Assembly: GCA_976551045.1 (NCBI GenBank)
Contig: CDPCPM010000125.1
Span: 1,302,001 to 1,366,000, forward strand
Source: Glaucostegus cemiculus
Lineage: Eukaryota
Reading direction: 5' to 3'
Length of the DNA stretch: 64,000 bases
Of the stretch, positions 34,991 through 62,839 are shown piece by piece (position 1 is the stretch's first letter; every line of letters begins with the position of its first letter). A program made the position numbers and the translations under genes. Below the pieces are notes generated by a model, which worked only from the letters and a program-made list of their open reading frames with translations, ran no database searches and was not told where the DNA came from.

Positions 34991-35071
34991 GGATATGTGG
35001 TGCTTGCAACACTTGCCGTTTTATTTTTTAAGTTTCAGAAACAAATAACTCGTTTTCAATTTCTGATTTAG

Positions 35072-40400: not shown

Positions 40401-41596
40401 CCAAATATGCCTTCTCAATTTAACATCAATCGACTTCTTTACCAAATATTCCTTCATATATAATGCAATTTTCTTCAAAAATATTCCTGTTACTGTGACG
40501 TTACTGTCAAAAATCAGCGTTTATTGGCCATCACTATTTGCCTCTTGAGAACAGAAGATGCCTTCTACTGAATAGTTTGCTGAAACCTTCGAATAGGCAA
40601 GCACATGCGATGGATCTCAATTAAGCGTGGTGGTTTTCCGTTCATTAGATTCCGTTCATTTCAGACATTGCAGAACCTAGATGTTACGACAATCTAGAAA
40701 TGTGTGTCTTCATAATCAATAGCAATATTTCTATTTTTCTGCAATATTATCTGAACTTTCATGCCACTGCTGTCACAATACGATTTCAGCTAGTGTCTGT
40801 GGATTGTTAATCTTTGACTCTGGATTACTGGTTTCAATTTAACCAGGAGAAAAGTAAATTCGGTACTTCTGAGGAGATATCGAAGAGAGACAACACATTA
40901 AATGAGCGCTTTGCATAATATTTATATTTTCATTCCACGAGGGCAATGCTGAGTTTTCAGTTCATTGTCCGTTCCATTTCCAATTCCTATCTACTCTGAC
41001 CTCTTCTTTCTGGTCTCCTGCACTGTTCCCACCAAGTCCGTCATAAAACCAATGAGCAGTGCTTTGTTTTTCGTTTGGTCACGGTACTTATCAGTGAAAT
41101 CAACAATTCCAGATAGCTTCTTTCCAGCTTGCGTCAGTCTTGTCAGTTCTGATGCAAAAGCATCAACCTGTAACCATAATTTGGTTCTTACTTTCTGAAT
41201 ATTCTTTTGCCTGTCGGTGTTCTTTCATTTCAATTGTCTAATAATTACTCCATTGAACATCTCGTAGGTCACCCTCCATTTCTTCCTATCACTCTCTATC
41301 GCTCTGATATTTTCCTATTATCCTGTTATAATCAACCGAAGTCATGCATCCATAGGGCTACCAGCATCCAGGGCACTTATGTCATTCAGTAAGTCTTATT
41401 TACCATGCTATCATTTCCCTTTGCTCTTTCAAAACTCACCGCTTCTCTGCAAATTAATGGGCTTTTAACAAACTTCCCCAATTTCTAATGAAACAGAATG
41501 ACCCTGCATTGTGAACTCGGTTTCTCCATTCTCAGATAAGCTTCCATTTTACCTTTTCGGTGATAATTAAGCTCCTTTATTACTCAATTGTTGCAG

Positions 41597-41623
41597 AGAT
41601 CCATATAAAGGAACTGGAAAAAG
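41597..41623 (+). CDS. Micro-exon 17, 27 nt, (K/E)IHIKELEK
   Basis: ttgttgcag|AGATCCATATAAAGGAACTGGAAAAAG|gtaaag. Confidence 0.85.
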
Positions 41624-43473
41624 GTAAAGTAAATTATTTCGGATCTGAATTTCCTTGTGGAATTGTACGTCTAATATCACACAATGACGATATTTCGACG
41701 ACAAAGAGGAACTAACGAATACTCTCTCTCTATCTCTCTCCCTCGCTTTCTCTTTCTATCCTGACGATGCCAGAAAAACAATTTATATATATATATGTTT
41801 ATAACCTAAACCTGGTGCATCAGAGAAGACAACGTTAACGTTTCGCGTTAAACATCGCAGTTGTTCGAGGAATAGCTCGACGACTTATTCAATATCTGTC
41901 ACTGAAATAAGTTGTCAGCCTCCACCTAGAAGTAGCCCAGTCTTGCCCAATATTGCATATTTCAACAGTGTGTAGTGCAAAAGCTTAGGCTTGAAGCAAA
42001 GTCCCGGCACCCGATGATTTCGAAGCGCGCTTTCGGTTATCTATATGCAGCAAATAAGAAGATGTTCAAGGAAAATGTGCAGAATTTAATGCATATGTGT
42101 TTCAGATTTTAAGTTTATATTTTAAACCTATTATTCTTTTTAAAAGATAACTATTTCATTACTCTTTAAATGCTTCTTAATGTCAGAAACATTTAGAAAC
42201 TGGATTTCAAAGCTGTTAAGTCAGGTACAAATAGGGATAGTCGTTTATGTTTGTTAAATTTTTCACTGAACTTCTGAGAACGGCCTTGGCCGTGGTGTTC
42301 CTGGATGCCCAGAAATCATATGTATATCGTTTCCGCAATAGATGTATTCCACGCGTGCTGCCTAATTTCGAGGAGATAGCATCAGCTCATTCCCTGCGGA
42401 GAGACGTTATTCTGACTAGATCTGCCCCATATTGCATAATCTTCAGGATTCATGCTCTGATTTTTGTACTTCTACATGTAGGCCAGCAGTCAGTAATCAT
42501 GTGGGAAACTTCAGCAAGTTCTTATGAATTCAACTTTTCCAGATAGTATTCCACTTCAAATAAAAACACAGTAGAACACGTAAAAATGTCAGCAGGCCGT
42601 GATTGCCAGATTGCGTCTGCTCCCACAAGTTTGTGTTGTATCGCACTCACGTTGACATCCGCGTGCACACTAATGCTTCAAAAGCAATTCATATGATTAC
42701 GTACAAAAGGGTCCATGTACCATAGTACAATTCACACCTCTGCACTCGAAGGGGTCATTTGCAAACAGCCAATCAAAAATAACTACTCTATCGGAAGTCA
42801 CATGTACAATGTCCAAATCTACTGACAGAGTGACGGTAAATCTGCAGTTATAACCATCAGAAAATTGCCGAAAAACACCAATAATGCTTGAATATTTGAA
42901 ATAAAACATGGTCTATCTGATGTCCTGAACAGCTGTTGTTCTCCTGAAGGAAAAACAGAAGCCTTCGCTGTGCTTGTTTGCCCGTGATGCAGAGTGATCT
43001 TCCAACGTCCATTGTAGTTTAACCAATGTCCAATCAGTCTCATCCTTCAGCTTGATCATGGCAAAATGGACGGAGCCCAGTGATTTCCTGGACCGCTCCA
43101 TACTGACTACTGCTTTAATCGTTTAACATTGACGGCTGCTAGTTTGGAATGGCGGTGTGAGAGGCAGTGGTTAATGAATGGCCGGGAGGGAGATTAGACT
43201 TGCAGTTCAAGTATCTTGTTCTTCAACTTGTTCTCCGAAATGTCGTCAACCCACTACTTACGACATTATTTATTTGGTTCTGCTCACATTTGTAGCCACC
43301 AGAATCAGATCTCTTTAGACAACAAGAAAAAAAAGGCGATTCGAAGTCCTAAATGGCATCTGCTGTGTAAAGATTTTTTATCAAACATTTCCTCGGAATG
43401 TTCCAAACGTACCTGGTGCAAATAAGCCGCACATGCCCAAAAATGTTCTATATTAAATGTATTTTCTTCGCAG

Positions 43474-43509
43474 ATGTGGATAAACTCAACATAGCTATTA
43501 TTGATAAAG
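43474..43509 (+). CDS. Micro-exon 18, 36 nt, DVDKLNIAIIDK
   Basis: ttttcttcgcag|ATGTGGATAAACTCAACATAGCTATTATTGATAAAG|gtaatt. Confidence 0.85.
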
Positions 43510-44990
43510 GTAATTGCTAGATGGCACAGGCGCGTCATTTCGCGCGGGACATTATAGTGTGGAGCAATTGCTTTCATCTTGTGATTCATTTTACACCAGT
43601 TGCATATGTTTTCGTGTGTAGGACCTGTGCATTCAAAGTGGCACATGTAAATATTGTTACGTTTCCAAAAATAAATTAAGATCCCCGATTATCCGATCTA
43701 GAGAAAACGTCGTTAGTAATTACGTTGGTAGAAATAAATTGTTTGCTTTGCTTATGTATTTTCCTTTCGCTGATCAAAACTCATCCACCCAGACAAAGCC
43801 GCGCAGATCAGTCGAGCTGCAAAGAAGATAACGACCAAGAATAGATCATGGGCGATTTTCTCAATACCCAATGCGTATAATCATTGAGAAGCACCACATT
43901 CAACCGAAATTTCCACTTTCTGAAATAGATAGCTACCATGTCAAGCTTCAGGAAGGGGAGGGAGGAAGAGTTTAAACAAGCTTTGATATATCATTATTGA
44001 ACTATCTATCAAAGAACATTTCTCCATAATCCTGAAAGTACTGAGCGTCGCAAGTCACTTGGTAGATGCATTCTATCGACAAGCAGCTCCCTGCATCGTT
44101 AAAATAAGTGGCTAACCGAATGCAGCTCCAACAGCGAACCACTGAGTGGTGAAAAGATGTGGCCTCTATAGACCTTAGTTATGTAATTACATAATGCACC
44201 AATAAACCATGCCCGCACTCCTGTTACATTCTGTCACGAATGGTAGTGGATAACTAAAGACCTGGAGTCACAACTAAATCCCCAGGAACATCAGCTTGAA
44301 GAGCGAAAACATGCGATTGGAATGTATATACAAATCGGTTAATGCGTTGTTCAGTTCCCAGCATCAGAAAGGTCGGTACAGCCAACCAAATGCTCCTTTG
44401 GCATTATATTTCTTTTACATTTTGGTTTCATTGTTTGCATTGTTAAGACGTTTCTATTTCAATGTGTGACGAAACTAAAACTTCTGAAGTGGCCTTCACA
44501 ACACTGGGAGTTGGCAAAGCTGGGGTGAGATTTTGCCGACCAATAATTTTTGGGGGGTGTTTCTTCGATGGGTGAAATCCTGTCGTCTGTTGCTAGACGC
44601 TCTACTCGCTTTCATTCCTTCTGTTGCAAAACAATTTGACCCAGCAACATATCCGTACTAGACGGCTGCGGCTTTGGGAGGCCATCTGCATAAATGCCGG
44701 ATGGACGATGAAATTAGCAAGGATGCGCATGTGTGTTCTTGAACAATTTTCACCTCCACTAATTTCACTTCAAGGTATAGCCAGAAAATTTCGATTTACA
44801 ATCTTACCTGCCTTGTGATCTGTGAATTAGTGGGTGCTCTCTTATTAAAAGTTTCTTGCAGCTGGATAAACGAAATAACGTCATACGTTTTTTAATGCAT
44901 AGAAGTTCTGTTTAATACTACATTGACCTTCATCGACAACCTTAATTCAGTTCAAGTATCGCAACAGTCTCCAACATGTTTTAAAAACAG

Positions 44991-45017
44991 AAAAAGAGCT
45001 GAAAAATAAAGACAAGG
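44991..45017 (+). CDS. Micro-exon 19, 27 nt, EKELKNKDK
   Basis: ttttaaaaacag|AAAAAGAGCTGAAAAATAAAGACAAGG|gtaagc. Confidence 0.85.
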
Positions 45018-45529
45018 GTAAGCGAACAATTAATTTTTCAAAGTTGCACCTGGAATTTTCAAAACAGACCGTTCACCACGCACACCAGACATTAGAATTA
45101 ACCATTTGGAAGATTGGGCCCAACTAAAAAGGCTTCTATCCACTGGAGTTGAAAATAACGCAACTGATTTGACAGGGTTAAACCGGAAATGGAGGTACCT
45201 CCTCTGGGAAAGATTATAAATAATCATTATTGCTTAAAAATAAAGTGTTCCCGACTGAAGAGCGTGATGAGGTGATCAGTTTGTGTTTGCCATGGAGGGC
45301 GCTGAGTTCTGCATTGCTATTATTCAAAGAGAAAAGGGAAAAGACCTTTTGTATATTTTATGGCTGATGTATATAGATCATTGACAATAAAATGGCTGAA
45401 CGAATACCGATATCAGCGGGAAAATGCTGTTGAGTTTACAAGCAGAAGGGTTAACATCTTATTGAATCCTGGGACAGGATCTGGCGGAAGAGTAGATATT
45501 ACCTGCCCCTAATTCATAGAATCATAGAG

Positions 45530-47568
45530 CTGGTGTTGGTATTAGTATTGGTTTATTTTTGTCACTTGTACCGAGGTACAGTGAAAAACTTGTCTTGCAT
45601 ACCGATCGTACAGGTCAATTTATTACACAGTGCAGTTGCATTGAGTTACTACAGAGCGCATTGATGTAGTAGAGGGTAAAAACAATCCCAGTGCAGAGTT
45701 AGGTGTTAGACCTACAAAGAAAGTGCAGTGCAATAAGGTGAAAGGTCACAACAAGGTAGATCAAGAGGTCAGAGTCCACCTCATTGTATAGGGGAACCGT
45801 TCAATAGTCTTATCACAGTGGTGAAGAAGCTGTCCTTATGTCTGGTGGTTCGTGCTTTCAGATTCCTATATCTTCTCCCCGATGGATGAGTTATTGTATC
45901 ATGCTGGCTGCTTCACCAAGACAACGAGAGGTAAAGACAGAGCCCAAGGAGGAGCGGCTGGTGTCCGTGATGGTTTGAGCTGTGTCGACAACTATTTGCA
46001 ATTTCTTGCGGTCCTGGGCAGAGCAACTGTCGTACAAAACTGTGGTTCATCCAGAGTAGATGCTTCCTGTGGTGCACCGGTAAAAGTTGGTGGGAGTCAA
46101 AGGGGATAAAACATTTTTTTTTCGCCTCCTGAGGAAGTCAAGCCGATGGTGAGCTTTATTGGCCGTGGCGTATCCGTGATTTGGCCATGACAGGTTGTTG
46201 ATATGGTTCACTCCCAGGAACTTGAACTCTAAAAACTCTCGGCCTCAGTACCATTAATGTAGTCAGGTGCATGTACACCGCCCCCTTTCCTGAAGTTAAT
46301 GACCAGCTCTTTTGTTTTGTTGACATTGAGGAAAAGGTTGTTGTCATGACACCATTCCACTAAACTCTCTATCTCCTTCCTGTGCTCCGACTCATCAGTG
46401 CTTGAGATATGGCCAGCAACGGCGGTATCATCTGCAAATTTGTCGATGGAGTTAGAGCAAAATTTGGCCAGACAGTCATGAGAGTATAGGGAGTAGACTA
46501 GAGTGGAAGGTTGAGGACGCAGCCTTGTGGGGAACCAGAGTTGAGAATACTCGTGCCGGAGTTATTGCTGCTTATCCTCACCGATTGAGGTTTCTTTGTT
46601 AGAAAGTCTAGGGTTCAGTTACAGAGGGAGATGTTGAGTTGTAGGTCTCAGAGTTTGGTGACAAGATTGTTTGGGATTATTGTATCGAAGGTAAAGCTGC
46701 TGTCAATAAACAATAGCCTCACGTTAGTGTCTTTACTGACCAGACGCTTCAGAGCTGAGTCTAGGGCCAGCGGGATGGTATCCGCTGTAGACTTGTTTCC
46801 ACGACAGGTGAATTGCAGTGGGTGCAGGTTGTCTGGGAGGCTGAAGTTGGCGCTTTCATGACCAACTTCTCAAAGCACGTGATGATAGTGGAAGTCAGAG
46901 CCACTGGTCGGTAGTTATTGAGGCATGTTGCCTTGCTTCTCTTTGGTAAGGGGATGATAGTGGTCTTCTTGAAACAGGTGGGAACATGATATTGAAGCAG
47001 AGAGAGGTTGAATATGTCCACAAATACCTCTGACAGGTAATTAGCACAAGATGTGAGCACAAGGCCAGGGACACCATCTGGGCCAGGTGCCTTCCTGGCG
47101 TTCACTTTCTGGAAGGCTGACTTTGTCCTCCACTGTGATCATAGGTTCACCTGAATTGGAGGCTATCAGGGTGCTTGGTGAAAGTCCAACTCCCTTCTGT
47201 TCAAAACGGGCATAGAATGTGTTAAGATCATGTAAGCTCTCCCATAACTGACGGCTAGTCAGGGTCTCTATTTTGAGTGGGTAATGCCTCTTAGCATCCC
47301 TGATAGCTTTCCTAAAGTCATACCTCGATTTCTTGTGCAGAACAGAATCAGCAGATTTATGAGCAGCAGTCCTCTACTTCAGTAGGGAGTGCATCTCCTG
47401 GTTCATCCATGGTTTCCTGTTTGGGAACACCCGTATTCTCTTCTTCGCTACACAGTCCTCCATACACTTGCTGATAAAGTCTGTGATGGTGGTGGCAGAC
47501 TAATCAATGCTGGTAGCTGAGTCTTTGAGCATTGACCAGTCCACAGTCTCAAAGTAGTTACGTAGGAG
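45530..47568 (-). mobile_element. Rex1/Babar LINE (~2 kb, decayed) inserted in a CR1 tail
   Basis: NARKAPGPDGVPG...VPTCFKKTTIIPLPK...CLNNYRPVALTS; 3' UTR shared with the copy at 53185. Confidence 0.9.
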
Positions 47569-47569
47569 A

Positions 47570-48750
47570 TGCGCAGCTGAGATACAGGTCCTTTGAACCA
47601 ACCACTCTATGCAAACTATGGTACCAACCGGAGTAGATTCAGTTTCCTGCGGTGGGCCCATATCCTTCTAATCCCCGCCTTTCCATGTACCTATCCAAGT
47701 GATTCTTAAATGATGCTAATGTACCTTCCTCAACCACTTCCTCTGGCAGCTCATTCCATGTAATCATCACTCTCTGAGTCAAATGATTATCTCTCTGGTC
47801 CCTTTTTAAATCTTGTCCCTCTCACCTTAAACCTATGTCGCCTTGGTTTGGACTTCCCAACCCTGGTGAAACAGAGTTAACATCCAAATTATCTTTGTCC
47901 ATCATGATTTTAAACATTTCTGTAACGTCCCCCGTCATTTTCATCCACTGCAATAGCCTAGCCAACCTCTGCATATCAATTAGGCTCTCTTGTCCTGGCA
48001 ACAACCTCGTAAATCTTTTCTGCTTTCTTTATGGATTAACCACGTCTTTTCCCAAAGTAAGGTGATCACAACTGTACCCCATACACCATGTGCGGCCTCA
48101 CAAACGACATGTCCCAACGACTATATTAAATGCCCTGACTGATGAAGGTCAGCATGCTAAACACATTTTCACCATCCTGTCTATCTGTGACCCCACTTTC
48201 AAGGATCTATGCATTTTTAATCCAAGGTTCTTCTGTTCCATTGCATGACTCGGTGCCCTACCATTCATAACATAAGTCGTACTCTGGTTTGACTTTCCAA
48301 AATGCATCATTTCACACTTAACTCTATTTAAGTTAATTTGTCATTCCTCAGCCCGCTTCCCAGATTGATCAAGATACCCATGCAATCTGGCATAACCTTC
48401 TTCACTATCAACAACACCTCCCAGTTTCGTGTCATCTGAAAGTTTACTGATGAAGCCTTGTGCATTCTCATCCAAATCATTTGCACAAATAGCGAACAAG
48501 GGTCCCAACACTGACCACTGCGGCACATCACCAGTGACTGACCTCAATACCGAGAAAGAACTTCGACCAACATCCTCTGCTTCCTACCTCCGAGACAATT
48601 TTGAACTCAGCTAACTAGTTCTCCATGGATTCCAAGGCACATAACCTTCCAGTCCAGCCTACCATGCAGAATCTAGTCAAAGGCCTTGTTCAAATGCAAA
48701 TTGACATTATCCACCGGCCTACCCTCATCTACGATTTTGATTACCTGATT
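47570..48750 (-). mobile_element. CR1 LINE 3' fragment (its tail lies at 45516-45528)
   Basis: SVTGDVPQWSVLGPLF...NDLDE...ISKLSDDTKLGGVVDSEEG RT motifs. Confidence 0.88.
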
Positions 48751-49578
48751 CGTGCCGTCATTTCATATCACTCAGAAGACATACAAAGTAATGGCGGATA
48801 TAAATATTGTCATGCTAGTCCTTCTGCTAAGTTAGTCTCGATGCTTAAATGTAAGAGAATATTTCTGGCTTATTAGGGATTCATATATGTTTGTGTTCGT
48901 CATCAAATATATTATCACGGAAAATATGTTCTGTACGCAGTAACTCAATGTTTTCTGTCAAAAAATACTGACCAATATTCAAACCAAGGCTGAGACATTG
49001 AACGCAAATGCATTGATCTAAATTCTAGACACTAAAAGAGTGCAATTGGATGGAATCTTATCCGGTTCAAATGAACCTACTGCATCCAGCTAACGACTAA
49101 CTGTTGGACTCTGCAATTAGCGTATTCTGAATACAGCGCTTGTACTCTGTGTTGTGAAATGTTCGAATGCTTTGGAGGACAGAAAATGGAACAGGTGATC
49201 TCTTGATCGATTTTAAAATATACCCCTTCCCTTCACCGGTTGGGTGATGAATGTAATTTAAACGGGAAGTGAATGCGTGTGTTTTGATATCACATTTAAA
49301 ACAATTAGTTTGTATTTTATGGGATTTACTGTATGTTCACCAATTGAATATAAATATCTCTGGTCATTAGAGATAGCAAAAAGCTGGGCCATGGTCCTGA
49401 GTTTCACGCGGTATAAAGTAAATCTATAATCCAACACATTTCCAAGTGACAGGATTAAGAAAAATAACCGGCTTGATAGAATAACATTCGACATTATGGT
49501 GAATGGTATGCTCAAGTTTGACCTTGAGGAGAGTAGCATCTTATTTTTACTGCTTTCTCCTGCACCCTGTGTTCACAG

Positions 49579-49605
49579 AGATAGCGCAAATTAACAACAC
49601 ATATG
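49579..49605 (+). CDS. Micro-exon 20, 27 nt, EIAQINNTY
   Basis: ctgtgttcacag|AGATAGCGCAAATTAACAACACATATG|gtgagt. Confidence 0.85.
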
Positions 49606-50079
49606 GTGAGTGGAAAGGTTTACTATGGGAATTAAATTCAGTGACATTAATGGGATAAGTCGGCAAACTTAAATTCTGTTTGTGTCTTTCTACCTGCTCT
49701 CTGATTGCTCTAGCCGGTTAATAAATGATTTCTGTCCGTCTTCCCGTGCAAATCGATGCAATAACTATATCTTTACAGTTTGGACATTGCTCTCAAATAT
49801 TTCATGAACCAGCACCTGATGTTTTTTTTTATTTTGCCCGAACATTATTTAGGGAACATGGCATTACCCATAAAAAGTGAACATGGCCTGTGAAATAGGT
49901 TAATAATAGGGTTTCTCTTCTGTTTAGCTTCCCATTACATATATCCGTCTATTTGGGACGCAATTGGATCAGTTCCGTCATCAAATATTTCTCGTCATAC
50001 CTTCACCGGCGCTAGATCTAATTCCTGTAAAACAACATTTCTCATAAAGTTGTGATGATCTGACGAACATCTGTTGGCT

Positions 50080-50870
50080 TCCTTTTTGGAAGTCAAAATG
50101 TAAGAGGAAAATATACACTAAATGGCAGAAGTCTACGGAGCAGTAATGTAGACGGGGATCTTTACAGAGGGTGCAAGTCCATAGTTCCCTGAAGGTGGCG
50201 ACACAATAGATAGGGTCGTTAAAAGGAGTATTATAAGCGTGTGTTTATCAGTCAGGGCATTGAGCAAATAACTTTGGAAACCATGTTTCAATTGTACAAA
50301 CATTTAGTCAGTTCATGATTGGAGTGTTGTATGCAGTTCTGTTTGCCGCATTAAAAAAAAGAAAATGGAGGCTTTGGAGAGTGAGCAAAAGAGGTTGGAC
50401 AACATATTAACTCGATTAGATAGTATTTGATATAAGAAGAGGTTATACACACTGGGATTGTTGTCTCCGGAGTGCCGGAGGCTGGGGGTGAACTAATAGA
50501 AGTACATAAAATTTTGAGTTTCAAGGATATAGAGAATCGGAGTGTTTTCCAACGGAATAAAATGTCAAACTCTGGAGGACATAGATTTAAGGGGGGTGGG
50601 GATTTTAAGGAGATTGAAGAAGCAAATTTATTATACAGAGCGTGGTAAGTGCCTGGAAAGCGCTGTCACTGGAGCTCGTGGAAGGAAATGCAATAAGCAC
50701 GTTTGAGAAACGTGTGGACAGATACAGGGTCAAACAGGGAATGGAACGATAAAGACAACATGAAGGCAGATGAAATTAGTTTACATTGGCATCGCTGTCA
50801 GCACAGACATTGTGGGCCGAAGGGCATGTTCCTGTCTTGTACAGTCCCAAGTTATGTGTTCTATTTTCAT
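50080..50870 (+). mobile_element. Degenerate CR1 3' fragment
   Basis: gtgcaagtccatagttccctgaaggtggcgacaca..., ttggagtgttgtatgcagttctg, gacattgtgggccgaagggc. Confidence 0.8.
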
Positions 50871-51340
50871 GTGGTAATCACGTTGCTCAATTTACAGGAT
50901 CCATTATTAATCGCCCATCCTTCATTTTCCACGAATATGTGATGGTTAGGCACCTTCCAGGGCTATTTTGATTTACCTCTGAAGATGGCTCTGTTGGGCA
51001 GAGTTTGGCAGGAATTAGCTCCAGCGTTATGTTATCCAAGTTATGACGAGACATTTCTCCATCCGAATATTGTGAACCTTGGTGTTCCCTGCGCCTGAAG
51101 CCTGTGTTTTATTGTTTACAACTTTATGAATTTGGAAAATACAAATGAGTGGGTTGCCGTGTGAACACAGTAAACTTCATATATCCTTGCGCCCTTTTTG
51201 GACACTTTACAATCGACTGTTCAATTACAATCACCTGGCAAGCCTCATTTTAATCAAATTACTGATCACGCATTCGAAGTGCCTTATTATATCTAATGTT
51301 CAAATTGGATTATCCTAACTCGAACATATGTCCATTTCAG

Positions 51341-51367
51341 AGGATAACATCGCAGAAAAAGACCTAG
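51341..51367 (+). CDS. Micro-exon 21, 27 nt, EDNIAEKDL
   Basis: tccatttcag|AGGATAACATCGCAGAAAAAGACCTAG|gtaaat. Confidence 0.87.
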   Translation, partial: RITSQKKT

Positions 51368-53184
51368 GTAAATTTATATTTCATTGTCTGGATTCATTCT
51401 CTCAAAACAAAACAATTAAGATATTTCTTTCGGAGCCGTCTGGAAATAAAGAATGATATTTCTGAAAATGTGTTCCATTTACGACGGAATAAGGAGTACT
51501 GTTCTTTCTCGGAGGGCCGTGATTGTATGGTCGTCCTTAATCCAGACATATTCGGAGGTAACTTCGTGTTGTTCTCTTTAATTGTGTGCGATGCCATTAT
51601 GGATTTTGCACTCATCATTTCATGACTTTATTATTTGTTGCTCCCGAAAAGAAATCGACTGCACATGGTATTTCGTGGTGAACTGCGGTCCAAGTACTGA
51701 GCACATCTAAGTCAACGTAGGAAGATGAAAAAACAGAGTTAAAATAACGATGACATGTGATGAACTTGGATTACCAGATGGCAAATAATAAGGTTTGTCA
51801 TAACAAAAAAAAAGTGCCGAATTATACATGAGAATTTGGAGAAAATGTGACAGATTATTGGATAGAAGCCACAAATTGGAAGCTCGTGATTAAAGGAGAT
51901 GTGTTCGGCCCGGCATGCTGAAATTAATCGGACTCCATAACTATATACAATCCGTATTAATTATTTGGATGGGAAATCCGAATATGCAGTCGGTAAATTT
52001 TCTTATGTCACAATGATAGCCGAGAGTGACACATATCGACTTAAAGATTCTAAGATAAAATTTCTGGAGTTGGCAAAATATGGCTTATGAAGCATAGATA
52101 GCGGAACTGGCAGGACGATGGAGCTGTTTGGACATGATGGTAGGGACTGACAGATAACATTTAAATGGTCAGGTGCACTTGTATGGTTTTTAATATTCTT
52201 TTCAATTTTTAGACTCCCTGGTCCAAAATCCACAACCCTCTCTCTCAACGGCTAATGGTATTTTGCTGCCTGCGATGTGGCAACTGACTCTAAAGCGGAC
52301 GTGGCTGAACTCCATACTTAATTTGCCAATCTTCATTCTTCCCTACTTCGGCAAGAATTAACCAGTATATACTGCCGAATTGACGGGGAACAATACATTT
52401 CTTCCAAGAACGAAAATTCAGTTTACTCAGAGAAAGTCCTGCCGAATTAATCTTAATGTGTCTGCGTGTTTTATGCAGGGAGGACAAAAAGCAATCTTTT
52501 CAGAAGATTGTGTGAAGACGAACTGTCCGTCTACCTTAATATGTTCACTGTCAATTTAAGCAGCGATAATGTCATTCCTACTTTTCACATGCAGCAGTAA
52601 CAGTTGCAGTGGAACTATCAGCATGTGCATCTGCTTTGGTTGGAGATACAGACCAGAGTTTCGCATTCAGGAAGATAATCATTGGGCATCGAATGAAGGT
52701 TTCATCCGTTCTAAGGGTGGTCATAGTCAGCAATTCATCAGCTGCAAAAGTGGCTCACAGAGTCCAAATAAAGTACTGTGGGAAGTCCGATAAAGCCACC
52801 AAAGAAAGATCCTGGCTGACATTTCCACCTGCATTAGAATTGCGTTTGCAATGAATCTTCTTGCGCCCAAATAACACGTGATTTCGAAAAATGTGGTACC
52901 CTTGACAGTTTCCAATATCTGAACTGTCGACTGTGAGTCTCAGACAGAGAAAAGCGTTGCCATCACCTTCTCTTTGGCTTATACAATGGTCTCAACTCAC
53001 GTAAGTGTATCTGGCTATTTTGGTAGTCGGGGGAGGAAGGCAATAATGCACGAATGAGTAAGAAACCGCAATGTATTTAAGGTAGATGTGAGTTATGAAT
53101 CAGAAGGAAATCGTGGGAGTGATGAGAGTCGCGTTAGGGTACCGAATAAGGATAAAGAAGGAAATATCAGCTTTGGTTGAGAGT

Positions 53185-53720
53185 TTATTAGTATTGGTTT
53201 ATTATTGTCACTTATACCGAGATACAGTGAAAAACTTGTCTTGCATACCGATCGTACAGGTCGATTCATTACACGGTGCAGTTACATTGGGTTAGTACAC
53301 AGTGTATTGAGGTGGTATTGGTAAAAACAATAACAATACAGAGTAAAGTGTCACAGCTACAGAGAAAGTGCAGTGCAATAAAGTGCAAAGTCACAACAAG
53401 GCAGATCGCGAGGTCAAAGTCCATCTCATTGCATAAGCGAACCGTTCACTAGTCTTATAACAGTGGGATAGAAGCTGTCCTTAAGTCTGGTGGTACGTGC
53501 CCTTCGGCACCTGTATCTTAGACCCGATAGAATGGAGAACGTTCTGGGTGGGTGTGGTCTTTGATTATGTTGGCTGCTACACCAAGACAACGAGACGTAA
53601 AGACATAGTCCAAAGAGGGGAGGCTGGTGTCCGTGATGCCCTGGCACTATCCACAACTCTCTGTAGTTTCCTGAGGTCCTGCGCAGTGCACTTGCCATAC
53701 CAAGCCGTGATGCATCCAGA
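53185..53720 (-). mobile_element. Rex1/Babar 3' end, same subfamily as 45530
   Basis: tattggttt.tt.ttgtcactt.taccgag.tacagtgaaaaacttgtcttgcataccgatcgtacagg shared with 45546; RARTTRLKDSFYPTVIRL. Confidence 0.88.
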
Positions 53721-54169
53721 AGGCAACTTCATTGCTAGTTCTGTTATTCAGAGATATACCACTTGTTAGTGGGAGTACATCTTTTGAATAGTAATCATGA
53801 CATAGTAGATGAATGCTGAGGTATCAAGTGAAGAAGAACGTCTTAACTAGCAACAGATAACTTCAGTGGGCAGGAGGTGATGGGACCAGTCTAATGCCAA
53901 ACCCAACAGCAGCAACTAAGTCAGTAATGGAACGACGGAGTCGAATGACTACACAACCTAAGTACAATTTGCTACATTGCCGCAACAGTGGTAAACAGGC
54001 GATGGATGGAAATACTGGAACATACTGAATAACAAAGGAGATACGATTACCTAAATATGTTCGTTATTAATATATGGCATGCAACTAATTTAAATAGGAA
54101 GCAGGCAACACATCAGAAAGTGTTGTTGATATGTTAAAAATGATTACTAGTAATTATTATCTGTCGGTG

Positions 54170-55310
54170 ATCTGTTTATTGTTGTCACTTGTATCGAGAT
54201 ACCGTGAAAAGCTTTTATTTACATGCCATCCAGACAGATAATTCCAAACATAAGCACATCGAGGTGGTTCAGAAGGGGGGATAAAAACATCAGAAAGCAG
54301 AATATAGTGTTACAATGACAGGGAAGGTGCTGTTCAGTGCAGATAGACAAATAAAGTGCAAGGACCGTGGAGAGGAAGTCTCAGAAAGCAAGAGTTCATC
54401 TTTATCGTATAAGAGGTCCATTCAACAGTCCGAAGACAACGTAATGGATGCTGTCATTCAGACTGGAGGTACGTGTTCTCAAGCGTTTAGATCTTCTGCC
54501 GGATGGGAGGGTGGAGAACAGAGAGTAACCGGGGTCGGGTCTTTGACTATGTTGCTTGCTTCTCCGTGGCAGCAGGAAGTGTATCCAGAGTCAATGGAAG
54601 GGAGACTGTTTGTTTTTTTGTGATGGACTTGGCTGTATTCAGAACTCTTTGTAATTTGTTGCGATCTTGAGCAGAGCAGTTGCCATACCGAGCTGTTACG
54701 CATCTGGATAGGAGCTTTCTTTGGTGGATCTGTAAAAATTCGTGAGGGTAATTGGGGGCATGAAGAATTTCCTTTGCATTCTAAGAAACGCTGTGCTTTC
54801 TTGGCCATTGTGTTCACGCGGCTGGATCCGTATCAATTGTTGGTGATATTTACAACTGTGTGCTTGAAGCTGTCAATTAACTCCACGTCAGCACATTTGA
54901 CAGACGGAGTGTGTACTCCTCCTTTCAGCCACTGATCAGATTTTGTTGTCTTGCTGACATTGAGGGAAAGGTTGTTGTGCTAACACCATGCCACGCGGTT
55001 TTCTATCTCCTTCCTGTACTCCGTCTCGTCGTTTTTCGGGTTACTGCTCACTGGGCTCTCCTCATCTGCAAATTTGTAGAAGCAGTTAGAATAGCACCGG
55101 GCCATAAAGTCGTGAGTGTATTGGAAGTAAAGTCAGGGCTTGCGGACATAGCCTTGTGGGACACCGGTGTTGAGGATAGTTGTAATGAAGGAGGTACTGC
55201 CTATCCGTACTATGTTCAGTTGGCGAGGAATTCAAGGATCCAATTGCGGGGATAGGGAGTGGGTGCCGACTATGAGTCCTGAGATTTTCAAGTGTATCAA
55301 TACGTCTTCC
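54170..55310 (-). mobile_element. Rex1/Babar LINE fragment, more diverged
   Basis: Related 3' UTR; MAKKAQR and GVPQG-like RT remnants. Confidence 0.8.
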
Positions 55311-55754
55311 ACTTCCATCCAAATCGGAAACAGGCAGTATGATGAGTTCAGTGGACCCTTCATAGACTGTGGGAAAATGCTGTCCACAGAGGACCTAGAA
55401 ATGCTGGGAATCCTTCACCATTAACAACGAAACACTTCAATTCCACAATTTTCGAAATTAGCACATTGTACATGAAGCAGACTTTGAAAACTGTTTCGCC
55501 AAAGTTATACGTTTAGATTAAACACCAACTGCTGTATGTGGAATGCGTCATACCGTGTTGGGAGAAATCGGGCTGAATATGTAACAGGGGCTTCCAATCC
55601 ACTCTTAGTTCACTCGGGGGCATTGCAAAAGTCATAAGCGTTATTAGGGCATGGTTGCCGGAACATCACAAGCAAGTACAAGCATATGACGTTAACAAAG
55701 GCAGTGGAACTCTATTAAAATTAAAACAATAAGATAATTAGAGAAACATAATTA

Positions 55755-55980
55755 GAGACATGGTCGTGTAGCGGTTAGTGTAACACTATTAAAGCGCCAG
55801 CGACCCGAGTTATCCGGTTTCCTCCCACATTCCAAAGGAGGCGTGTTAGGAAGTTGTGGACATGCTATGTTGGCGCTCGAAGCTGGCGACACTTGCAGCT
55901 GTCCCGGAACACTGCGCAAAAGATGCATTTCATTGTGTGTTTCGACCTATTTTTGACTAATGAAGATATCTTAATCTTAA
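55755..55980 (+). mobile_element. Internally deleted tRNA-derived V-SINE
   Basis: catggtcgtgtagcggttagtg (A box), ccggtttcctcccacattccaaag V-domain, (ATCTTA)n tail. Confidence 0.8.
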
Positions 55981-56253
55981 GTATTTGTTTATATGTGGTT
56001 ATCTGTTAATCAGTACATTTGGCAGTAAGAGTAAAGCGGCCAGAATGTTGTGAGCAACGCATCTGCAAAGATAAAGGAGGGCCGCACGCACCCGCCGACC
56101 GGCGAACAAGACGGGAGGAGTCAAATTTTACCAAAGATAAACCTAAACATAATATTCTTGGATTTCAGCGAATCTGCTGTGTTGTTTATTTCAATGAAGA
56201 AGATATATTTCCTTGAATGCATCATGAATTAACCATAACGTTTTTATTTTCAG

Positions 56254-56289
56254 AACTAGAAAGTGTAAGAGAACTGCTTAATGATGCAG
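56254..56289 (+). CDS. Micro-exon 22, 36 nt, ELESVRELLNDA
   Basis: tttttattttcag|AACTAGAAAGTGTAAGAGAACTGCTTAATGATGCAG|gtgagc. Confidence 0.9.
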
Positions 56290-57383
56290 GTGAGCGTTTA
56301 ATTACAGTGTCCAAAACTCTTACAGAATTTTGATGAAATCATGCAGTGCAAAAATGTAGAAAGAGTACTTTGAAATCCTTAAGATAAATAAATAAGCTAC
56401 ATCAACGTCTAGCACCGCTATTGAAACAAAATATTATGAAGGAGCAGAAGGAATACAACATTGCATGGAGGTGATGTCCTTGGATAGGCCACCCCTGGAA
56501 TTTCGCTCCCAAAGGAGACTTAAGCAACTTCTGCTTTATGACTTCCGGTCTATCAAAGAGATATCTTGAAATGCACATGCTTGTGAGTTTTATCTGAATC
56601 TAAAGATATGGAAAACGAAGAGGTGGAGAGAAACGTTGTTTTGACACACCACGTAAGGTTCTGAGGCTTTTTGTGTCAGGTGTACAAAAGCTCCGAATTC
56701 ACTCTACTGGAATCGGCATCTTGAACTCATTCAATCCAAACCAACATTCAAAACCTGAATTTGCTATTTTCCCTTCACTTCAGTGTAAATAAATGCATTT
56801 AGGGAATTTAGAAACGAATGCATTCGTTTACATATTTCGGTAAGATCCCACGTATTAGATGTTCTTAAAAATGGCGATTCTGGTAGACCGCTCTCACTCT
56901 AGGCTCAGCACCCTATAAGCACAACAGCGAGTTACACTATAATATGGAGATTATGGCAAGTCGTTTGAAGTCAGTCAGGCGTGTGGGAGTAAGAAATCGT
57001 CAGTTCAGTGAGGTCGCAGATTGTACAATGGCACCAGCTGGAAATAATTACGTCTCACTTCATCCTTGAAAAAATCAATTCAATAATTTACACGATGATG
57101 ATTGTGTTTGAGGATTGTGGAGAAATGAAATGGATAAGGGTATTCATTTACAGATGATTCGTGAATGAACTAATATCAGGTCATATTATTAGGCTTTTTT
57201 TTTTAGTTACTTGTTGTATTGATCAGAACAATTCCTTTCGCCAAGAATGATAACATAAATGTTTAAGTCATGCACCATGCGACAAGAGAATATTGCTTAG
57301 CACGCAACGACAATGCGGCTTTTCGAGGTTTGCTTAAGAAGGAAAGCACCAATTAAATTGACATCGACTTTCAGTTCTTTTCC

Positions 57384-57450
57384 ATTATTATTGTTGTTAT
57401 TATTATAAAGATTGTTATCATTATTATCATTGTTATTGTCATCGCTCATC
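57384..57450. repeat. Imperfect (ATT/GTT/ATC)n microsatellite
   Basis: attattattgttgttattattat...atcattattatcattgttattgtcatc. Confidence 0.8.
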
Positions 57451-57764
57451 GTCTTCATTATCAATTTCTTCGTCGCTGAATTGTATCATTATTATTCCTT
57501 GCACTTCATATCAAGGTATCATGGAGTTTGCAGTATTGAAATGCAGCAGATCCTGTGATCGGCTGATAATTTGATGAGATCTACTTTCCTCTAAATATTC
57601 CCATAGCTGTTCCCTTCTCTGTTAAACACTTTGCCCTATCAGACCTCTGTTATGTTGGGTCTACAGATTCAGAAACCGTGTCTGCATTTGGGGAAGAGGG
57701 CAACATTGAAAGCTACGAGACGCAAGGAGTTAACTGAATGTTTATTAATAATACTGATCAACAG

Positions 57765-57791
57765 GGAGAAAACTGAACAGAAAGGAAAAGG
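57765..57791 (+). CDS. Micro-exon 23, 27 nt, GRKLNRKEK
   Basis: ctgatcaacag|GGAGAAAACTGAACAGAAAGGAAAAGG|gtaagt. Confidence 0.82.
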
Positions 57792-59820
57792 GTAAGTACA
57801 TTCCGGTAAAAAAAATACTTGACACTTAAATTTCAGTGAAATATTTCCACTGTACAGACAGAAGTAAATTAAATTATGCAGCAACACTAAATAGACACTA
57901 GGCAAATTTTGGAAACTACGTGATGGGAAGTAAACAAAACCAAACGAAACTACTCAGCCGAAGGTTCCTTGAGGCTCAGAGATCCATGTGTGAACTATTA
58001 TTGCCCTTTAATTCTCAAAGCTATTTTGGAAGTTCTGTCCAGCGGTTTTGTTTCGTACCGTCACAAACACATTCCTGAAAGTAACTGTCCAGCGCTGGAA
58101 AGTTAGTTTGGCGTTTAAAGTATTACAAAACATTTTATGGTGAAAGTGGAAACGGAGTTCTCCATTAAACAACGATTTAAACCAGTTCCCGTGATTACAC
58201 GAACGAGATATTTCCAAGCAGAGATTGAGGAAATGGAATTTTGATAAAAGGCTTTCAAAATTCCCCATGTTCTTACAAATTCATGCGTTGAACTGTGACT
58301 AAGCTACTGTTTAAGGATAAATTTTGGCAGTACCTTCAGGGCCCAGAAAATGTATTTTAAAGGAGCTCACAACCGACTAATCATCACCAAAACTTATCTC
58401 TATCCCATGTCACCTGGATTGCAAAATAATTGAGAAGTATTTGACTTTTCATTCACTATATTGCGCTTGACAGATCCGGCTTGCGTCGTTAAATTTGGAC
58501 TTATTTACCATTTGCGGCCACTCGCCACACCAAAAAAGAAATCCGCCTCTTTGTTGTAGCCTTATCGCAGGGCAGAACAGCCCAAAAGGGGTGACGAGAT
58601 TTTGCAGGGCAGAAACTATCCGTGCATACGGATTGTCCTGACATCATTCACCAGATCGTACTTCCAGAAGGGTATTCGACTATTTCCAAATACCTCTGAT
58701 TTATAAACCGTGCAAAAACTATTCAAATAAGATGTATTAAAACAACCTAAATATTCATTTCAGAATGAAGAGGACGTCAGTACATAAACTGAGAGTAAAT
58801 AGAGAAAGAGAATGATTTGTTCTGCGTTGGACGCAGACAGGAAGTAGTCATCTACGTCACGATTAGAAAATTAGAGATTTAAAAATGAGGAAACATTGGA
58901 TGAGGGGAGAGTTAACAGGCAAAAATAGTCCATGACTCCATGACTGATATCTGTTGGGTACAGTCAGGCTCAACAGACAATGGGTTTACTGCTGTTCCTT
59001 ATCCATATTGAAGAGTATGAAGAAATGTGCTGCGCAAACTTGCTTATCTATGAGGTATGAAAATGTTAAGGCAATATCACCAACATAATTACCCTGGATT
59101 GAATGGCCGGGCTACTTCTCTTGGAAGTGCATCCTCAGCCTTCACAAGGCGGTGGTTAGTTGGCCAATTAATAACTTCACGACACTGGTCACTAGGTTTG
59201 AAAGCAAGGTTCTGTTTGGACATTGGTGAAAAGGACTATTACAAAGTCAATACATTAAAGTGAGAGAGGAAACTGAAATACAGAGCGAAGGAAAGTCATT
59301 TTGGTATTTGGATAGCCTTGTTACTCGGAGCATGAACGTGTGTCTTGGGTCGTGAGAATCGAATGCATGCTTGTTGTCTTTCTCTGAAATTGTATTCCTC
59401 TTGTCAACGTTATCTAAACGTGAATTGCTGACAGCTGCGCTAACACCCTCCAGCAAATATGAATTCGACTATCTTCTACAACGTTCCGATAATCGTATGT
59501 GCCCTAAATGATTTGACAGTGATTATTTGTTGTTTGCCAACCTAAATGACTGGAGTGTCATTTTTATGTCTTACAAGCACAGGAAACAAACTTCATGATG
59601 ATATTGTACAACATTCTCTCTCGCTTGGCCTTGCCGCAAAAGTCTACCAATTCCTCATGTGCCATACATTAGAAACAAGTGTGCATCCAAACTGAGCCCA
59701 TTTGAATATATGAGTGTGTCTATGTGTGTTTGTGTGTATACATACGATAGAAATATATGCTCCCATGTTTATATACTGCTGCTATACTACTTACGTCTGG
59801 TTTTGTTTGTTCTTTTACAG

Positions 59821-59856
59821 AAATCGAGACTTTACAAATTTCATTGAAGGATGCAG
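59821..59856 (+). CDS. Micro-exon 24, 36 nt, EIETLQISLKDA
   Basis: ttgttcttttacag|AAATCGAGACTTTACAAATTTCATTGAAGGATGCAG|gtagga. Confidence 0.9.
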
Positions 59857-60194
59857 GTAGGAGACAAACTTTTCTCAATTGCATTTAGTGACTGCGATTC
59901 TCTGATAATTCTTTTGCATTTCCAAGCGATAGTTTTCATTTTTATTACTACATTTTCCGGACACCATGTAATGAGCCAAACATTACTCGAGATTACTTAC
60001 ATGAAGCGTTTGTATACAGGAGTGAACACGACAATGAAATACATGACGCTGTTGATTCCAATCAGCTCATTTGCATGTGCAGACTGCAGATGTTTACTAA
60101 ATGTAGCTTTAATAAACTATAAGACTCTTCTCCTATATGTGTCACGACGCCTTTTGAAAACCAATATTGTGTACTTTTTTGTTTGTCTCCGCAG

Positions 60195-60221
60195 AAAATG
60201 CACTGAATAAATTGAGAAAAG
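60195..60221 (+). CDS. Micro-exon 25, 27 nt, ENALNKLRK
   Basis: ttgtctccgcag|AAAATGCACTGAATAAATTGAGAAAAG|gtatga. Confidence 0.88.
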
Positions 60222-61107
60222 GTATGAGCGGTAAATGTGCAGCAGGTCTCATTTTAGGTTTTATTCCGTTACATATGATGAAGAATAATCTGGAAAGAAA
60301 TAATTTGTTCTCAGATAGAGCTGTTTTAGAATAGCTATGACTTTACGTGAGATTGCCATGCAGTATGGTGAAACAATATAAAGCTTACATAAGGATAGCG
60401 AGCTTATGTTGTGTACTGCTTCCTATCACGTCACTGAACAACTTTTCCCCGCTGATGAGGTCATGGCACCTATCTTCCTGTCAACAGTTGCATTTCTGCG
60501 AAGCCAAAGGGCTACTAACAAAAGTATAGAAAATACCTTCGACTGTCTTGAACCATTTACATCTTACAAGTCGTGATATATGATCAAGCTGTAGAGGCAT
60601 GTGATTTATGCCGAATATTCTGAACGAAGTTATTCACTACCCTTCTCCCAACAGCGAGGCTTCCATTATTTGTTCACGTGATCGCCGCAATGTTAAGCAA
60701 GTGATGACTGAAGACAACGGTTTTCAAAGAGAAAACTCAGCATTTGTACGATAATCTGCTCGTTAACTTTTGTCTATTTTCGTACTTTTTCAATGACTTG
60801 GCAAAAGTGTACTTCTGTTCGTATTGCAAGATTTTTACAATATATTATGGATGGAGTAAAATGCCCTAACCTTTCAAGTTCGCATGAAGTTTGTGGAGCA
60901 AATCATATCGCTAAAGCTGAAAGAGTGCGTCTTCCATTATTCACATGCCCGATGCAAAAATAAAATGCTGTGATGTGCAGGATAAACTGAATCTATATTT
61001 TTCCACAAGATTTGATGTTACCTCCATAACTTTAAGTGTAATCTAGGAAGTTATGTGATTCCGAATGATGAGTTTGATTAATATTTTAACGCATATTTCT
61101 TCGCTAG

Positions 61108-61134
61108 ATTTGGAGGATATTCAGCTGAAGTGCA
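61108..61134 (+). CDS. Micro-exon 26, 27 nt, DLEDIQLKC
   Basis: tttcttcgctag|ATTTGGAGGATATTCAGCTGAAGTGCA|gtaagt. Confidence 0.85.
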
Positions 61135-61270
61135 GTAAGTAACAGTCATCAGCTATTACTTTGCATTTGGCACAGTGATATGTATTTTCACTTTATTCAT
61201 GGAATTCTATTCCTGATCTTCTGTCGCAAACAGGACTGAGATTTAAATTACTTCACATCTTTTGTTACAG

Positions 61271-61297
61271 AGTTAGACGAAGTTGAAAGAAACATAG
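61271..61297 (+). CDS. Micro-exon 27, 27 nt, (K/E)LDEVERNI
   Basis: ttttgttacag|AGTTAGACGAAGTTGAAAGAAACATAG|gtaatt. Confidence 0.82.
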
Positions 61298-61648
61298 GTA
61301 ATTGTAATTTTGTTCCATGTTTTTCCCGCTCAAAAAACATAATGGCATTCTACAGTGTCTGTAAATAAATTTGAATGCTGAACAGTATTCAAATTTACAG
61401 AAAAAAAGAACGTTTGGAAGTTTATCCTCTAATTTGCTGCAGACCTTGACTGGATAGAACTTATTTCTAGCGGCTGTGATACAAGGCAATATTGCACTTC
61501 TTCCCAGGTTTCCTGTAGCGAACCTTCCACTTTGCCTTATCTGTTATTATTCAGTTCCACACTCCTCATCCATTTGAAAAAAAAACTAACTACTATTAAT
61601 GATTCAATGTTCCAATCCTTATTCTGTCACACGAATTCTAGTATCTGT

Positions 61649-61711
61649 AATTTAATTCACTGGTTAGAGAGATTAATTTAATCCACTGGTTAGAGAGATA
61701 AATTCAATTCA
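61649..61711. repeat. 26-bp tandem duplication (~2.4 copies)
   Basis: aatttaattcactggttagagagatt / aatttaatccactggttagagagata / aattcaattca. Confidence 0.8.
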
Positions 61712-62839
61712 TTGCAGATCATTTCTATCTGTATATGATGAAAATGTTCATCCAGCTCTAAATGGCTTCATAAGCTTAATTCCATGAAATTTATCTTGTT
61801 TTCAGTCATTTAGATTGTTCTTTTATCCGTTTCAAAGTTTACGACTTATGCAGTAACAAAACTGTAGTGTGATCTGAGACCAGAAAAGTGTTAAACCCAT
61901 GCGTAATTCGCCGAAACTCAACTTGTTCATATTTGCAATATTTATCACGTGTTTTCATCAATCCGGTATAGATATGAGTTGGATAGTTTTACATTTTTAA
62001 ACACTGAAATTAAATGATTACTGGTTTGTTTTACCGTTGCCCTGATCTATTACTATCTGGATATTCAATTAGTAGTTTTACATTGCTTTCGATCACAATG
62101 CCTTTGGAAAAATGGGGAGAAAAAGCTGGATAACGATATCACCTTGTAAATTGTTGACTCGCCGGTTAATCCACAAAGTGTATTCTGCCAATTTCGCTGC
62201 CAGCCCACTTTCAAATATGCCGAGCTCCCACTTTCAAACAATTCACAATTATTCTGTAAACTTCCACTGAAACATTTATTGTCCTCCATGCGATATTATT
62301 GAAAGCTTTTAAAGATAACTGATATCCATTGCTGTTCAGAAGAAAAAAAGGAAAGTTCATTGGTAATTTTGAATATAAGTTTAAGAACTACATGTTACTT
62401 GACAAGAGCTGTTATGTTGATTAGCATAAATTTCCACCAATCTATTCACTGTCTTTCTTAAATACTGAAATTGTGTTTGTAATGTCCAATCACAAGGTAG
62501 AAAATATGGAGAGCACTAAGAATAATGACGGTCAACTCCGTTAATGTGACTATTAGTACGATATTATGAAGCTCCAGTGAATGTTGACGTTTTATAACTA
62601 TGGCTTTCTTCAGCTGTCCATTCTTTAGAATAAACTAACCCAAAACTATATTGCTCGTCAAGACATGGCTCTGTTTATTGAAATTCATAAATTGGATAAT
62701 AGTTTCACTCAAATTCTCCGTGTCCTTATTCTGTGGTAAATGGTCACAGACCTCCATCCAGAATAACACCATTCCACCACTATCGACTGTCTTATACGGC
62801 AAGGAAATTCTGAATCTAACCTACCAGTCACCATGACCG

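What the first reader, a model, noticed from the sequence alone, without database searches (positions are those of the whole stretch)
41597..61297. Exon grammar equals coiled-coil register: 27+36 nt is three heptads, 27+27 nt is a stutter
Seen: two exon types alternate. Type A (9 aa) has core residues at positions 4 and 7, and position 7 is often K. Type B has core residues at 2, 5, 9 and, in the 12-aa form, 12. In EDNIAEKDL-ELESVRELLNDA-GRKLNRKEK-EIETLQISLKDA-ENALNKLRK-DLEDIQLKC the core falls at 4,7,11,14,18,21,25,28,32,35,39,42,46,49,53,56,60, an unbroken a/d pattern across six exons about 10 kb apart. A plus short B gives 18 aa (7+11, a hendecad/stutter). Inference: selection preserved the register, and A+B pairs are the interchangeable unit.
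Basis: partly seen in the sequence, partly recalled or inferred. Interest (0 to 1): 0.75.

Follow-up and report, generated by a model that had tools for sequence, protein, structure and literature searches.

The report
Giant microexon rod-B30.2 gene
The tiny 27- and 36-base segments carry proper splice signals and lie in the front part of a 460,000-base cartilaginous-fish gene that likely strings about 170 of them into a very long helical rod ending in an immune-type B30.2 binding domain; each 36+27 pair adds three coiled-coil repeats, but nothing shows that the pairs are skipped together.

Summary
The microexons are real. They are 11 of about 168 phase-1 exons (97 of 27 nt, 62 of 36 nt) spread over 459 kb and ending in an intact B30.2/SPRY exon 350 kb past the window. 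The register claim holds gene-wide: 36-nt exons recur at exactly 21 residues in 39 of 61 intervals (shuffled: 13), and hydrophobic periodicity peaks at 3.50. The stutter claim is half right: 39 residues is the commonest exception (7 of 22), but only 1 of 7 fits a full stutter, and the interval's last exon breaks the register. Pairwise skipping is unsupported: six isoform differences in annotated relatives are 6-9 residues, never 21. A ray orthologue's database model contains matching exons in order. The family (rays, sharks, chimaera) forms its own B30.2 clade without RING, B-box or Ig domains; a paralogue starts Met-Ser directly into the rod, so the protein is likely cytoplasmic. Closest known: chicken BG tails and butyrophilin heptad exons. 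I found no paper describing it. This scan already noted the family in other genomes. No transcript of this locus was seen; its 5' end is unresolved.

The parts
41597..41623 (+). 27-nt phase-1 microexon, mixed type
43474..43509 (+). 36-nt type B microexon (core 2, 5, 9)
44991..45017 (+). 27-nt type A microexon (Leu4, Lys7)
49579..49605 (+). 27-nt short-B microexon (core 2, 5, 9); with the next exon the one insert that fits a stutter
51341..51367 (+). 27-nt type A microexon
56254..56289 (+). 36-nt type B microexon
57765..57791 (+). 27-nt type A microexon
59821..59856 (+). 36-nt type B microexon
60195..60221 (+). 27-nt type A microexon (a second GT 9 nt further on would give 36 nt)
61108..61134 (+). 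27-nt short-B microexon ending in Cys, weak splice signals, 29/39 identical to a sibling at +75427
61271..61297 (+). 27-nt short-B microexon that breaks the a/d series
1333..38243 (+). 14 further microexons of the same gene inside the window (starts 1333, 3131, 7996, 12460, 16462, 17509, 20331, 23937, 24918, 29468, 31155, 32406, 35039, 38217; 21-60 nt)
1..64000 (+). The whole window lies inside the gene. The array starts about 48 kb before the window (G000:C125 near 1253843) and ends beyond it with a last 27-nt exon (C125:1713058-1713084; 8 of 9 residues identical in the ray orthologue) and an intact terminal B30.2/SPRY exon (C125:1713892-1714412; 173 codons and stop)

Best explanation
The interval is a slice of one very large gene whose roughly 168 phase-1 microexons likely encode a segmented coiled-coil rod of about 1,700 residues capped by a B30.2 domain, and the protein is predicted to be a soluble cytoplasmic dimer that would act as a long tether or scaffold carrying paired B30.2 binding heads. 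Shown: splice signals, lengths, phase, open frame, alternation, 3.5-residue periodicity, the B30.2 exon, and matching exons in database models of relatives. Inferred: that all exons join in one transcript; that the gene grew by old duplications of 36+27 pairs and of longer blocks, which keeps frame (all phase 1, multiples of 3) and register (21 = 3 x 7); that 18-residue inserts act as stutters in some places and hinges in others; that the rod is a parallel dimer; that it lacks a signal or membrane segment.
For: Exon set. Register: 39 of 61 B-to-B intervals are 21 residues against 13 +/- 3 shuffled (max 25 in 5000); 3.5 periodicity 1.27 against 0.275 +/- 0.062 (0 of 300); a positions 95% hydrophobic, e/g charged; alternation holds for exons picked by splice signal only (93 of 131 against 65.6 +/- 5.7). 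Link to B30.2: the Narcine model XP_069797409, 80% identical in B30.2, has best-matching homologues of 7 predicted exons in the same order ahead of it. Method check: the paralogue's predicted chain is 133 of 190 identical to Narcine XP_069775384 from its Met-Ser start. No RING, B-box or Ig: 8 of 8 relatives hit only SPRY; no such match in 864 kb. AlphaFold2 monomers of relatives: one 74-residue helix, a disordered linker, a B30.2 sandwich (pLDDT 77.5); long helices with short breaks (pLDDT 55).
Against: No transcript or protein of this locus was seen. The start exon was not identified; a Met-Ser-Pro exon at -58196 and the Met in the first 36-nt exon are only candidates. The Narcine orthologue model is only 289 residues and has 7 exons where this genome has 23, so the full-length rod may be rare or lineage-specific. 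Two of six core positions per unit are poor: d12 is 18% hydrophobic and d19 is Lys in 32 of 39. The chain was hand-curated, and it is stop-free only if the weak exon at +354047 is included or the 24-nt exon at +352209 left out. Alternation weakens at stricter splice cut-offs as exons drop out (57 of 96, 248 of 5000). A skate model begins with a signal-like stretch. The function is by analogy only.
Confidence: 0.6

Rival explanations
1. Length dial: tissues tune the rod by skipping exons in register-neutral 36+27 pairs.
For: Any set of exons keeps the frame; class-preserving shuffles keep periodicity; the short Narcine model keeps strict 36/27 order across the places where it has fewer exons.
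Against: 0 of 6 internal isoform differences in relatives are 21 residues: 6, 9, 9, 9, 7, 9. A 33-residue block differs between the paralogue and its Narcine orthologue. Apparently decayed single A exons exist.
Confidence: 0.2
2. A membrane-anchored butyrophilin/BG-like receptor whose Ig and transmembrane exons lie further upstream or are too diverged to detect; the rod is its cytoplasmic tail.
For: Short heptad exons before B30.2 are the butyrophilin layout (PMC6790196 passages); best solved-structure match is BTN3A1, 95 bits against 76 for TRIM21.
Against: No Ig match in 300 kb upstream or inside the gene; the paralogue and two relatives start Met-Ser into the rod; no Ig-bearing row falls in the family clade.
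Confidence: 0.1
3. Only the 3' part is used: internal starts give short rod-B30.2 proteins, and the upstream array is one or more separate or seldom-used transcription units.
For: Database models of the orthologue are 171-289 residues; Narcine isoforms differ in their starts; the 5' part, including this window, is less regular.
Against: 0 stops in 116 splice-selected exons along the whole array; same strand and grammar throughout; no second B30.2 or other terminal domain in 864 kb; a 945-residue shark family member is annotated.
Confidence: 0.2
4. A TRIM that lost RING and B-box and works as an antiparallel-dimer decoy or adaptor.
For: Database names are TRIM39/58/69-like or A33-like; the genome holds at least 150 B30.2 loci.
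Against: No RING, B-box or TRIM_CC hit; fish TRIM coils sit in 96- and 234-bp exons (PMC2657112 passage), not microexons; separate clade.
Confidence: 0.07
5. A secreted rod protein.
For: Skate model XP_055510696 starts with a hydrophobic stretch.
Against: That stretch ends where an exon-type peptide begins and reads like a translated pyrimidine tract (inference; the same artefact arises at +66739); no convincing signal exon upstream.
Confidence: 0.05

Closest known systems
Chicken BG genes and the BG-derived zipper protein (PMC4046983, PMC5938342, PMC8813856; passages read)
   Same: A long coiled coil spelled by many tiny exons with a split first codon; true heptads span exon borders; exon number varies; alternative splicing in the tail; a soluble tail form exists.
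   Different: BG uses about 30-38 exons of 21 nt, one heptad each, behind an IgV and a transmembrane segment and has no B30.2. Here two exon sizes (36+27) make a three-heptad unit, there are about 168 exons, the end is B30.2, and no Ig or membrane exon was found.
Butyrophilins (BTN3A1, BTN2A1), cytoplasmic part
   Same: Very short heptad exons followed by a single B30.2 exon; single heptad exons can be skipped (PMC6790196); best PDB match of this B30.2.
   Different: BTNs have IgV, IgC and a transmembrane segment and only a few heptad exons; the B30.2 here belongs to a separate long-stemmed clade and has no Pfam PRY hit.
TRIM-B30.2 proteins (TRIM39/58/69-like, A33-like, the labels databases give the relatives)
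   Same: Coiled coil followed by B30.2.
   Different: No RING or B-box; coil built from microexons rather than two medium exons; the labels rest on B30.2 similarity alone.

Membership tests
Butyrophilin (BTN/BTNL) | Extracellular IgV and IgC domains | tested here: not met
   No hit by motif scan, Pfam on 131 upstream ORFs or tblastn with 23 Ig-motif proteins; 8 of 8 relatives lack them.
Butyrophilin (BTN/BTNL) | Signal peptide and transmembrane segment | tested here: inconclusive
   None found; paralogue starts Met-Ser; this gene's first exon is not identified; one skate model has a signal-like start.
Butyrophilin (BTN/BTNL) | Short heptad exons directly before a single B30.2 exon | tested here: met
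Butyrophilin (BTN/BTNL) | B30.2 groups with butyrophilins | tested here: inconclusive
   Best PDB match BTN3A1, but the quick unrooted tree puts the family apart from Ig- and RING-bearing rows alike.
Chicken BG | IgV plus transmembrane segment, no B30.2 | tested here: not met
   B30.2 present, IgV not found.
Chicken BG | Tail of 21-nt one-heptad exons | tested here: not met
   1 of 168 exons is 21 nt; 159 are 27 or 36 nt.
TRIM (RBCC) | N-terminal RING and B-box | tested here: not met
TRIM (RBCC) | Antiparallel coiled-coil dimer (recalled) | not tested
Canonical coiled coil | 3.5-residue hydrophobic periodicity with a/d core | tested here: met
   Peak at 3.50; a 95% hydrophobic, d 36%.
Coiled-coil stutter (hendecad) | Core continues in a 3-4-4-3 pattern through an 18-residue insert | tested here: inconclusive
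   Full fit 1 of 7, loose fit 3 of 7, polar or proline break in the rest.

The most novel reading that the evidence does not exclude
Cartilaginous fishes have their own ancient class of membrane-free rod-B30.2 proteins, built like a ruler from two-exon, three-heptad bricks, reaching up to about 250 nm, in which lineage and perhaps tissue set the reach of an immune-type binding head by adding or dropping microexons.
Probability: 0.3. Interest if true: 0.8.

Novelty: new variant of a known kind. Interest (0 to 1): 0.55.

Why it matters
It is a 460-kb vertebrate gene that is nearly invisible to annotation: database models of its orthologues hold 171-289 of about 1,890 predicted residues and carry TRIM-type names that the domain content does not support. 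It gives a clean natural case in which exon size and order map onto coiled-coil register, with about 60 repeats, so whether splicing or exon gain and loss respects protein register becomes directly testable with long reads. It also adds a third arrangement of the butyrophilin/BG toolkit (rod plus B30.2, no ectodomain found) that predates the split of chimaeras from sharks and rays.

Tried and rejected
RNA: no RNA holder was listed for window 55000-62000, so no reads were laid. First homologue search with the B30.2 alone, longer proteins only, gave 9 generic TRIM/BTN hits; the profile search of 775-2210 residues gave one family member among 26 hits. Upstream Ig, membrane, RING or signal exons: motif scans, Pfam on 131 ORFs, tblastn and signal-exon scans found none convincing. 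A short-word tblastn of relatives against the region was noise. Recent tandem duplication rejected: 0 of 222 self-BLAST hits cover exons on both sides, best-sibling identity median 0.59 and maximum 0.72; collinear blocks are only a modest signal (18 runs against 9.1 +/- 2.8, maximum 18 in 200 shuffles). The careful tree did not finish; the quick tree was used. Literature searches listed no paper on this family; the library lacks most subscription papers, and no supplements were opened.
Full report
OBSERVATION. They span 51341-61134. A generic splice scan of the window gave 9 segments of 27 nt and 4 of 36 nt among 23 on the + strand, 1 and 0 among 24 on the - strand. The window is G000:C125:1302001-1366000 of a 2.85-Gb genome; the gene's closest relatives are all from cartilaginous fishes where named. 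I read 300 kb upstream and 500 kb downstream. Positions with + or - beyond 1-64000 count on from the window's start.

EXTENT. The array starts about 48 kb before the window and runs to +411 kb, 459 kb in all, median intron 2.1 kb. A model trained on splice signals and peptide profile scores 134 of 1890 + strand candidates at 9 or more, 0 of 1892 on the - strand, and 1 on each strand of the flanks. With splice signals only, 116 exons of 27 or 36 nt pass on the + strand and 2 on the - strand; 0 of the 116 have a stop in the phase-1 frame, against 77 and 60 in the other frames (the weights came from the stop-free set, so this is not fully independent). Third codon positions vary most. The array ends in a 27-nt exon at +411058 and an intact exon at +411892-412412 that matches Pfam SPRY (E 5e-16) and, best among solved structures, the BTN3A1 B30.2 domain (95 bits; TRIM21 76). 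My final chain has 168 exons (97 of 27 nt, 62 of 36 nt, 9 others), 1,716 residues before the 173-residue B30.2, no stop. It was hand-curated: from 161 automatic calls I dropped 4, changed 2 and added 2, added 4 and added 5, two of them earlier drops. One junction (+352209 with +357145) reads as a stop unless the weak exon at +354047 lies between them, so the stop-free result depends on that choice.

REGISTER. On the 159-exon version, 112 of 158 neighbours alternate 27/36 (shuffled 69 +/- 6, 0 of 10,000), and hydrophobic periodicity peaks at 3.50: power 1.27 in 105-residue windows against 0.275 +/- 0.062 for shuffled order (0 of 300). Shuffling only within exon class gives 1.14 +/- 0.07 (7 of 300 reach native) and equals native in 28-residue windows (152 of 300), so the register is a property of class order and exons of a class are interchangeable. 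On the final chain 39 of 61 intervals between 36-nt exons are exactly 21 residues (shuffled 13 +/- 3, maximum 25 in 5,000); the longest unbroken run is 11 units. Exons chosen by splice score alone still alternate at cut-offs 5 and 6 (93 of 131, 0 of 5,000; 73 of 110, 5 of 5,000), weakly at 7 (57 of 96, 248 of 5,000). In the 39 regular units the three a positions are 90-97% hydrophobic, the first d 87%, the second d 18% (Thr, Cys, Ala) and the third d is Lys in 32 of 39. The core is thus four strong and two weak layers per 21 residues.

STUTTER. Of 22 irregular intervals 7 are 39 residues (21+18; shuffled 4.4 +/- 1.9, not a clear excess), 5 are 30, and 9 are 4 mod 7. Only the insert at 49579+51341 has the full stutter core; three of seven fit loosely; in others one exon is polar or carries Pro/Gly. 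The insert at 61108+61271 is two short-B exons and breaks the series. I infer a mix of stutters and hinges. AlphaFold2 of a 945-residue shark family member, without alignment and at low confidence (pLDDT 55), shows long helices cut by short linkers.

RELATIVES. An HMMER search of 1.84 billion representatives and a profile search gave orthologues by B30.2: Narcine 80%, an unnamed contig protein 80%, Hypanus 73%, Chiloscyllium and Scyliorhinus torazame 63%, and further members in skate, catshark, basking shark and Callorhinchus. The Narcine model XP_069797409 has best-matching homologues of exons +333661, +335250, +337773, +357145, +387568, +388501 and +411058 in order ahead of B30.2 (4 chance hits on the - strand control), which supports both the exon calls and their link to B30.2. 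It has 7 rod exons where this genome has 23. A paralogue on contig C274 has 27 microexons over about 45 kb and a start exon giving Met-Ser in phase 1; its predicted chain is 133 of 190 identical to Narcine XP_069775384 from the first residue. There only 1 of 7 intervals is 21 residues, so strict alternation marks this long gene, not the whole family. Three own-genome searches found only these two members (lower bounds). Eight of 8 relatives scanned hit SPRY only. In a quick tree of 82 rows (21 proteins scoring 150 or more on a family profile, the two own-genome domains, all 22 Ig-motif rows, 30 random RING/B-box rows, 7 other own-genome loci; the other 118 of 191 distinct domains left out; labels by motif pattern) the 23 family rows form one clade (SH-aLRT 100) with no Ig or RING row inside; it is unrooted and does not say whether the family came from BTNs or TRIMs. 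The ESM Atlas lists chordate SPRY clusters of 1,277 and 1,579 residues as look-alikes (0.93, 0.91); their members could not be seen, so long rod-SPRY proteins may already be in databases under generic names.

SKIPPING. Six internal differences among database isoforms of four relatives are 6, 9, 9, 9, 7 and 9 residues; none is 21. That such models rest on RNA-seq introns is recalled, not checked, and none of the six lies in a long regular run, so the test is weak but runs against obligatory pairs. Two type A exons look decayed in this genome, one with a lost acceptor at +364914 and one shortened at +352206, so single-exon loss appears to happen.

ORIGIN. Sibling exons are old: best identity median 0.59, maximum 0.72 with splice sites included, and no intron homology around them. 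Recurring blocks of three or four exons suggest duplication units longer than a pair as well. Retention of frame, core and alternation over that divergence implies purifying selection, but duplication of ready-made pairs explains the origin of the pattern without any splicing rule.

MECHANISM. Most likely a cytoplasmic parallel coiled-coil dimer, at most about 255 nm if fully helical, broken by hinges and ending in two B30.2 heads, working as a tether or scaffold. The AlphaFold2 monomer of the Narcine orthologue gives one helix over residues 2-75, a disordered linker, a short helix and the B30.2 sandwich (pLDDT 77.5). Cytoplasmic location rests on the paralogue's start and on failure to find Ig, membrane, RING or signal exons; this gene's own start is unresolved. 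Oligomer state, partner and tissue are untested.

KNOWN SYSTEMS. Chicken BG tails are coiled coils written in 21-nt exons with heptads spanning exon borders, and a soluble tail regulates actin-myosin (PMC4046983, PMC5938342, PMC8813856; passages). Butyrophilins have a few heptad exons before B30.2, singly skippable (PMC6790196, passages; PMC12841164, first of four parts). Fish TRIM coils use 96- and 234-bp exons (PMC2657112, passages). The gene works like a BG/BTN tail set free and greatly lengthened, but fails the defining tests for BTN, BG and TRIM. Eight full-text searches listed no description (other papers seen as listings only). Earlier notes of this scan report the same family in other genomes; they are unchecked AI notes and are not counted as support.

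VERDICT. Real, well beyond chance, first reading partly supported; an apparently undescribed variant of the butyrophilin/BG microexon-rod design. Interest 0.55.

Noticed in passing
L018:964-1863 (window -69036 to -68137), further copies near -194 kb and -288 kb: Single-exon rhodopsin-family receptor genes in a cluster upstream of the array (PF00001).
   Followed up: partly
L055:4327-5877 (window +498327 to +499877): Intronless Shaker-type potassium channel gene 86 kb downstream of the B30.2 exon (Ion_trans and BTB_2).
   Followed up: partly
window -273059 to -271296, - strand: 588-codon open frame that looks like an NLR/NACHT exon (label recalled, not scanned).
   Followed up: no
window +364914 and +352206 (L042, L040): Type A exon-like stretches with a lost or shifted acceptor; possible exons in decay.
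   Followed up: partly
window +206344 to +259130: Six 36-nt exons end in Cys at the weak d position; 28 exons in all carry Cys. Possible inter-chain cross-links.
   Followed up: no
window +175204 and +377730: Two well-scoring exons use GC donors.
   Followed up: no
G000 contigs C172, C200, C581, C466, C196: At least 150 other B30.2 loci, many in dense clusters.
   Followed up: no
G000:C274:546048-598000, - strand (L094-L099): Shorter paralogue with 27 microexons, a Met-Ser start exon and a looser exon order.
   Followed up: yes
window 46764-47138, - strand, and many introns: Reverse-transcriptase fragments of LINE-type repeats fill the introns (label recalled).
   Followed up: no
protein P0160 (skate model): Signal-like N-terminus that may be translated intron; would mislead location predictions.
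   Followed up: partly
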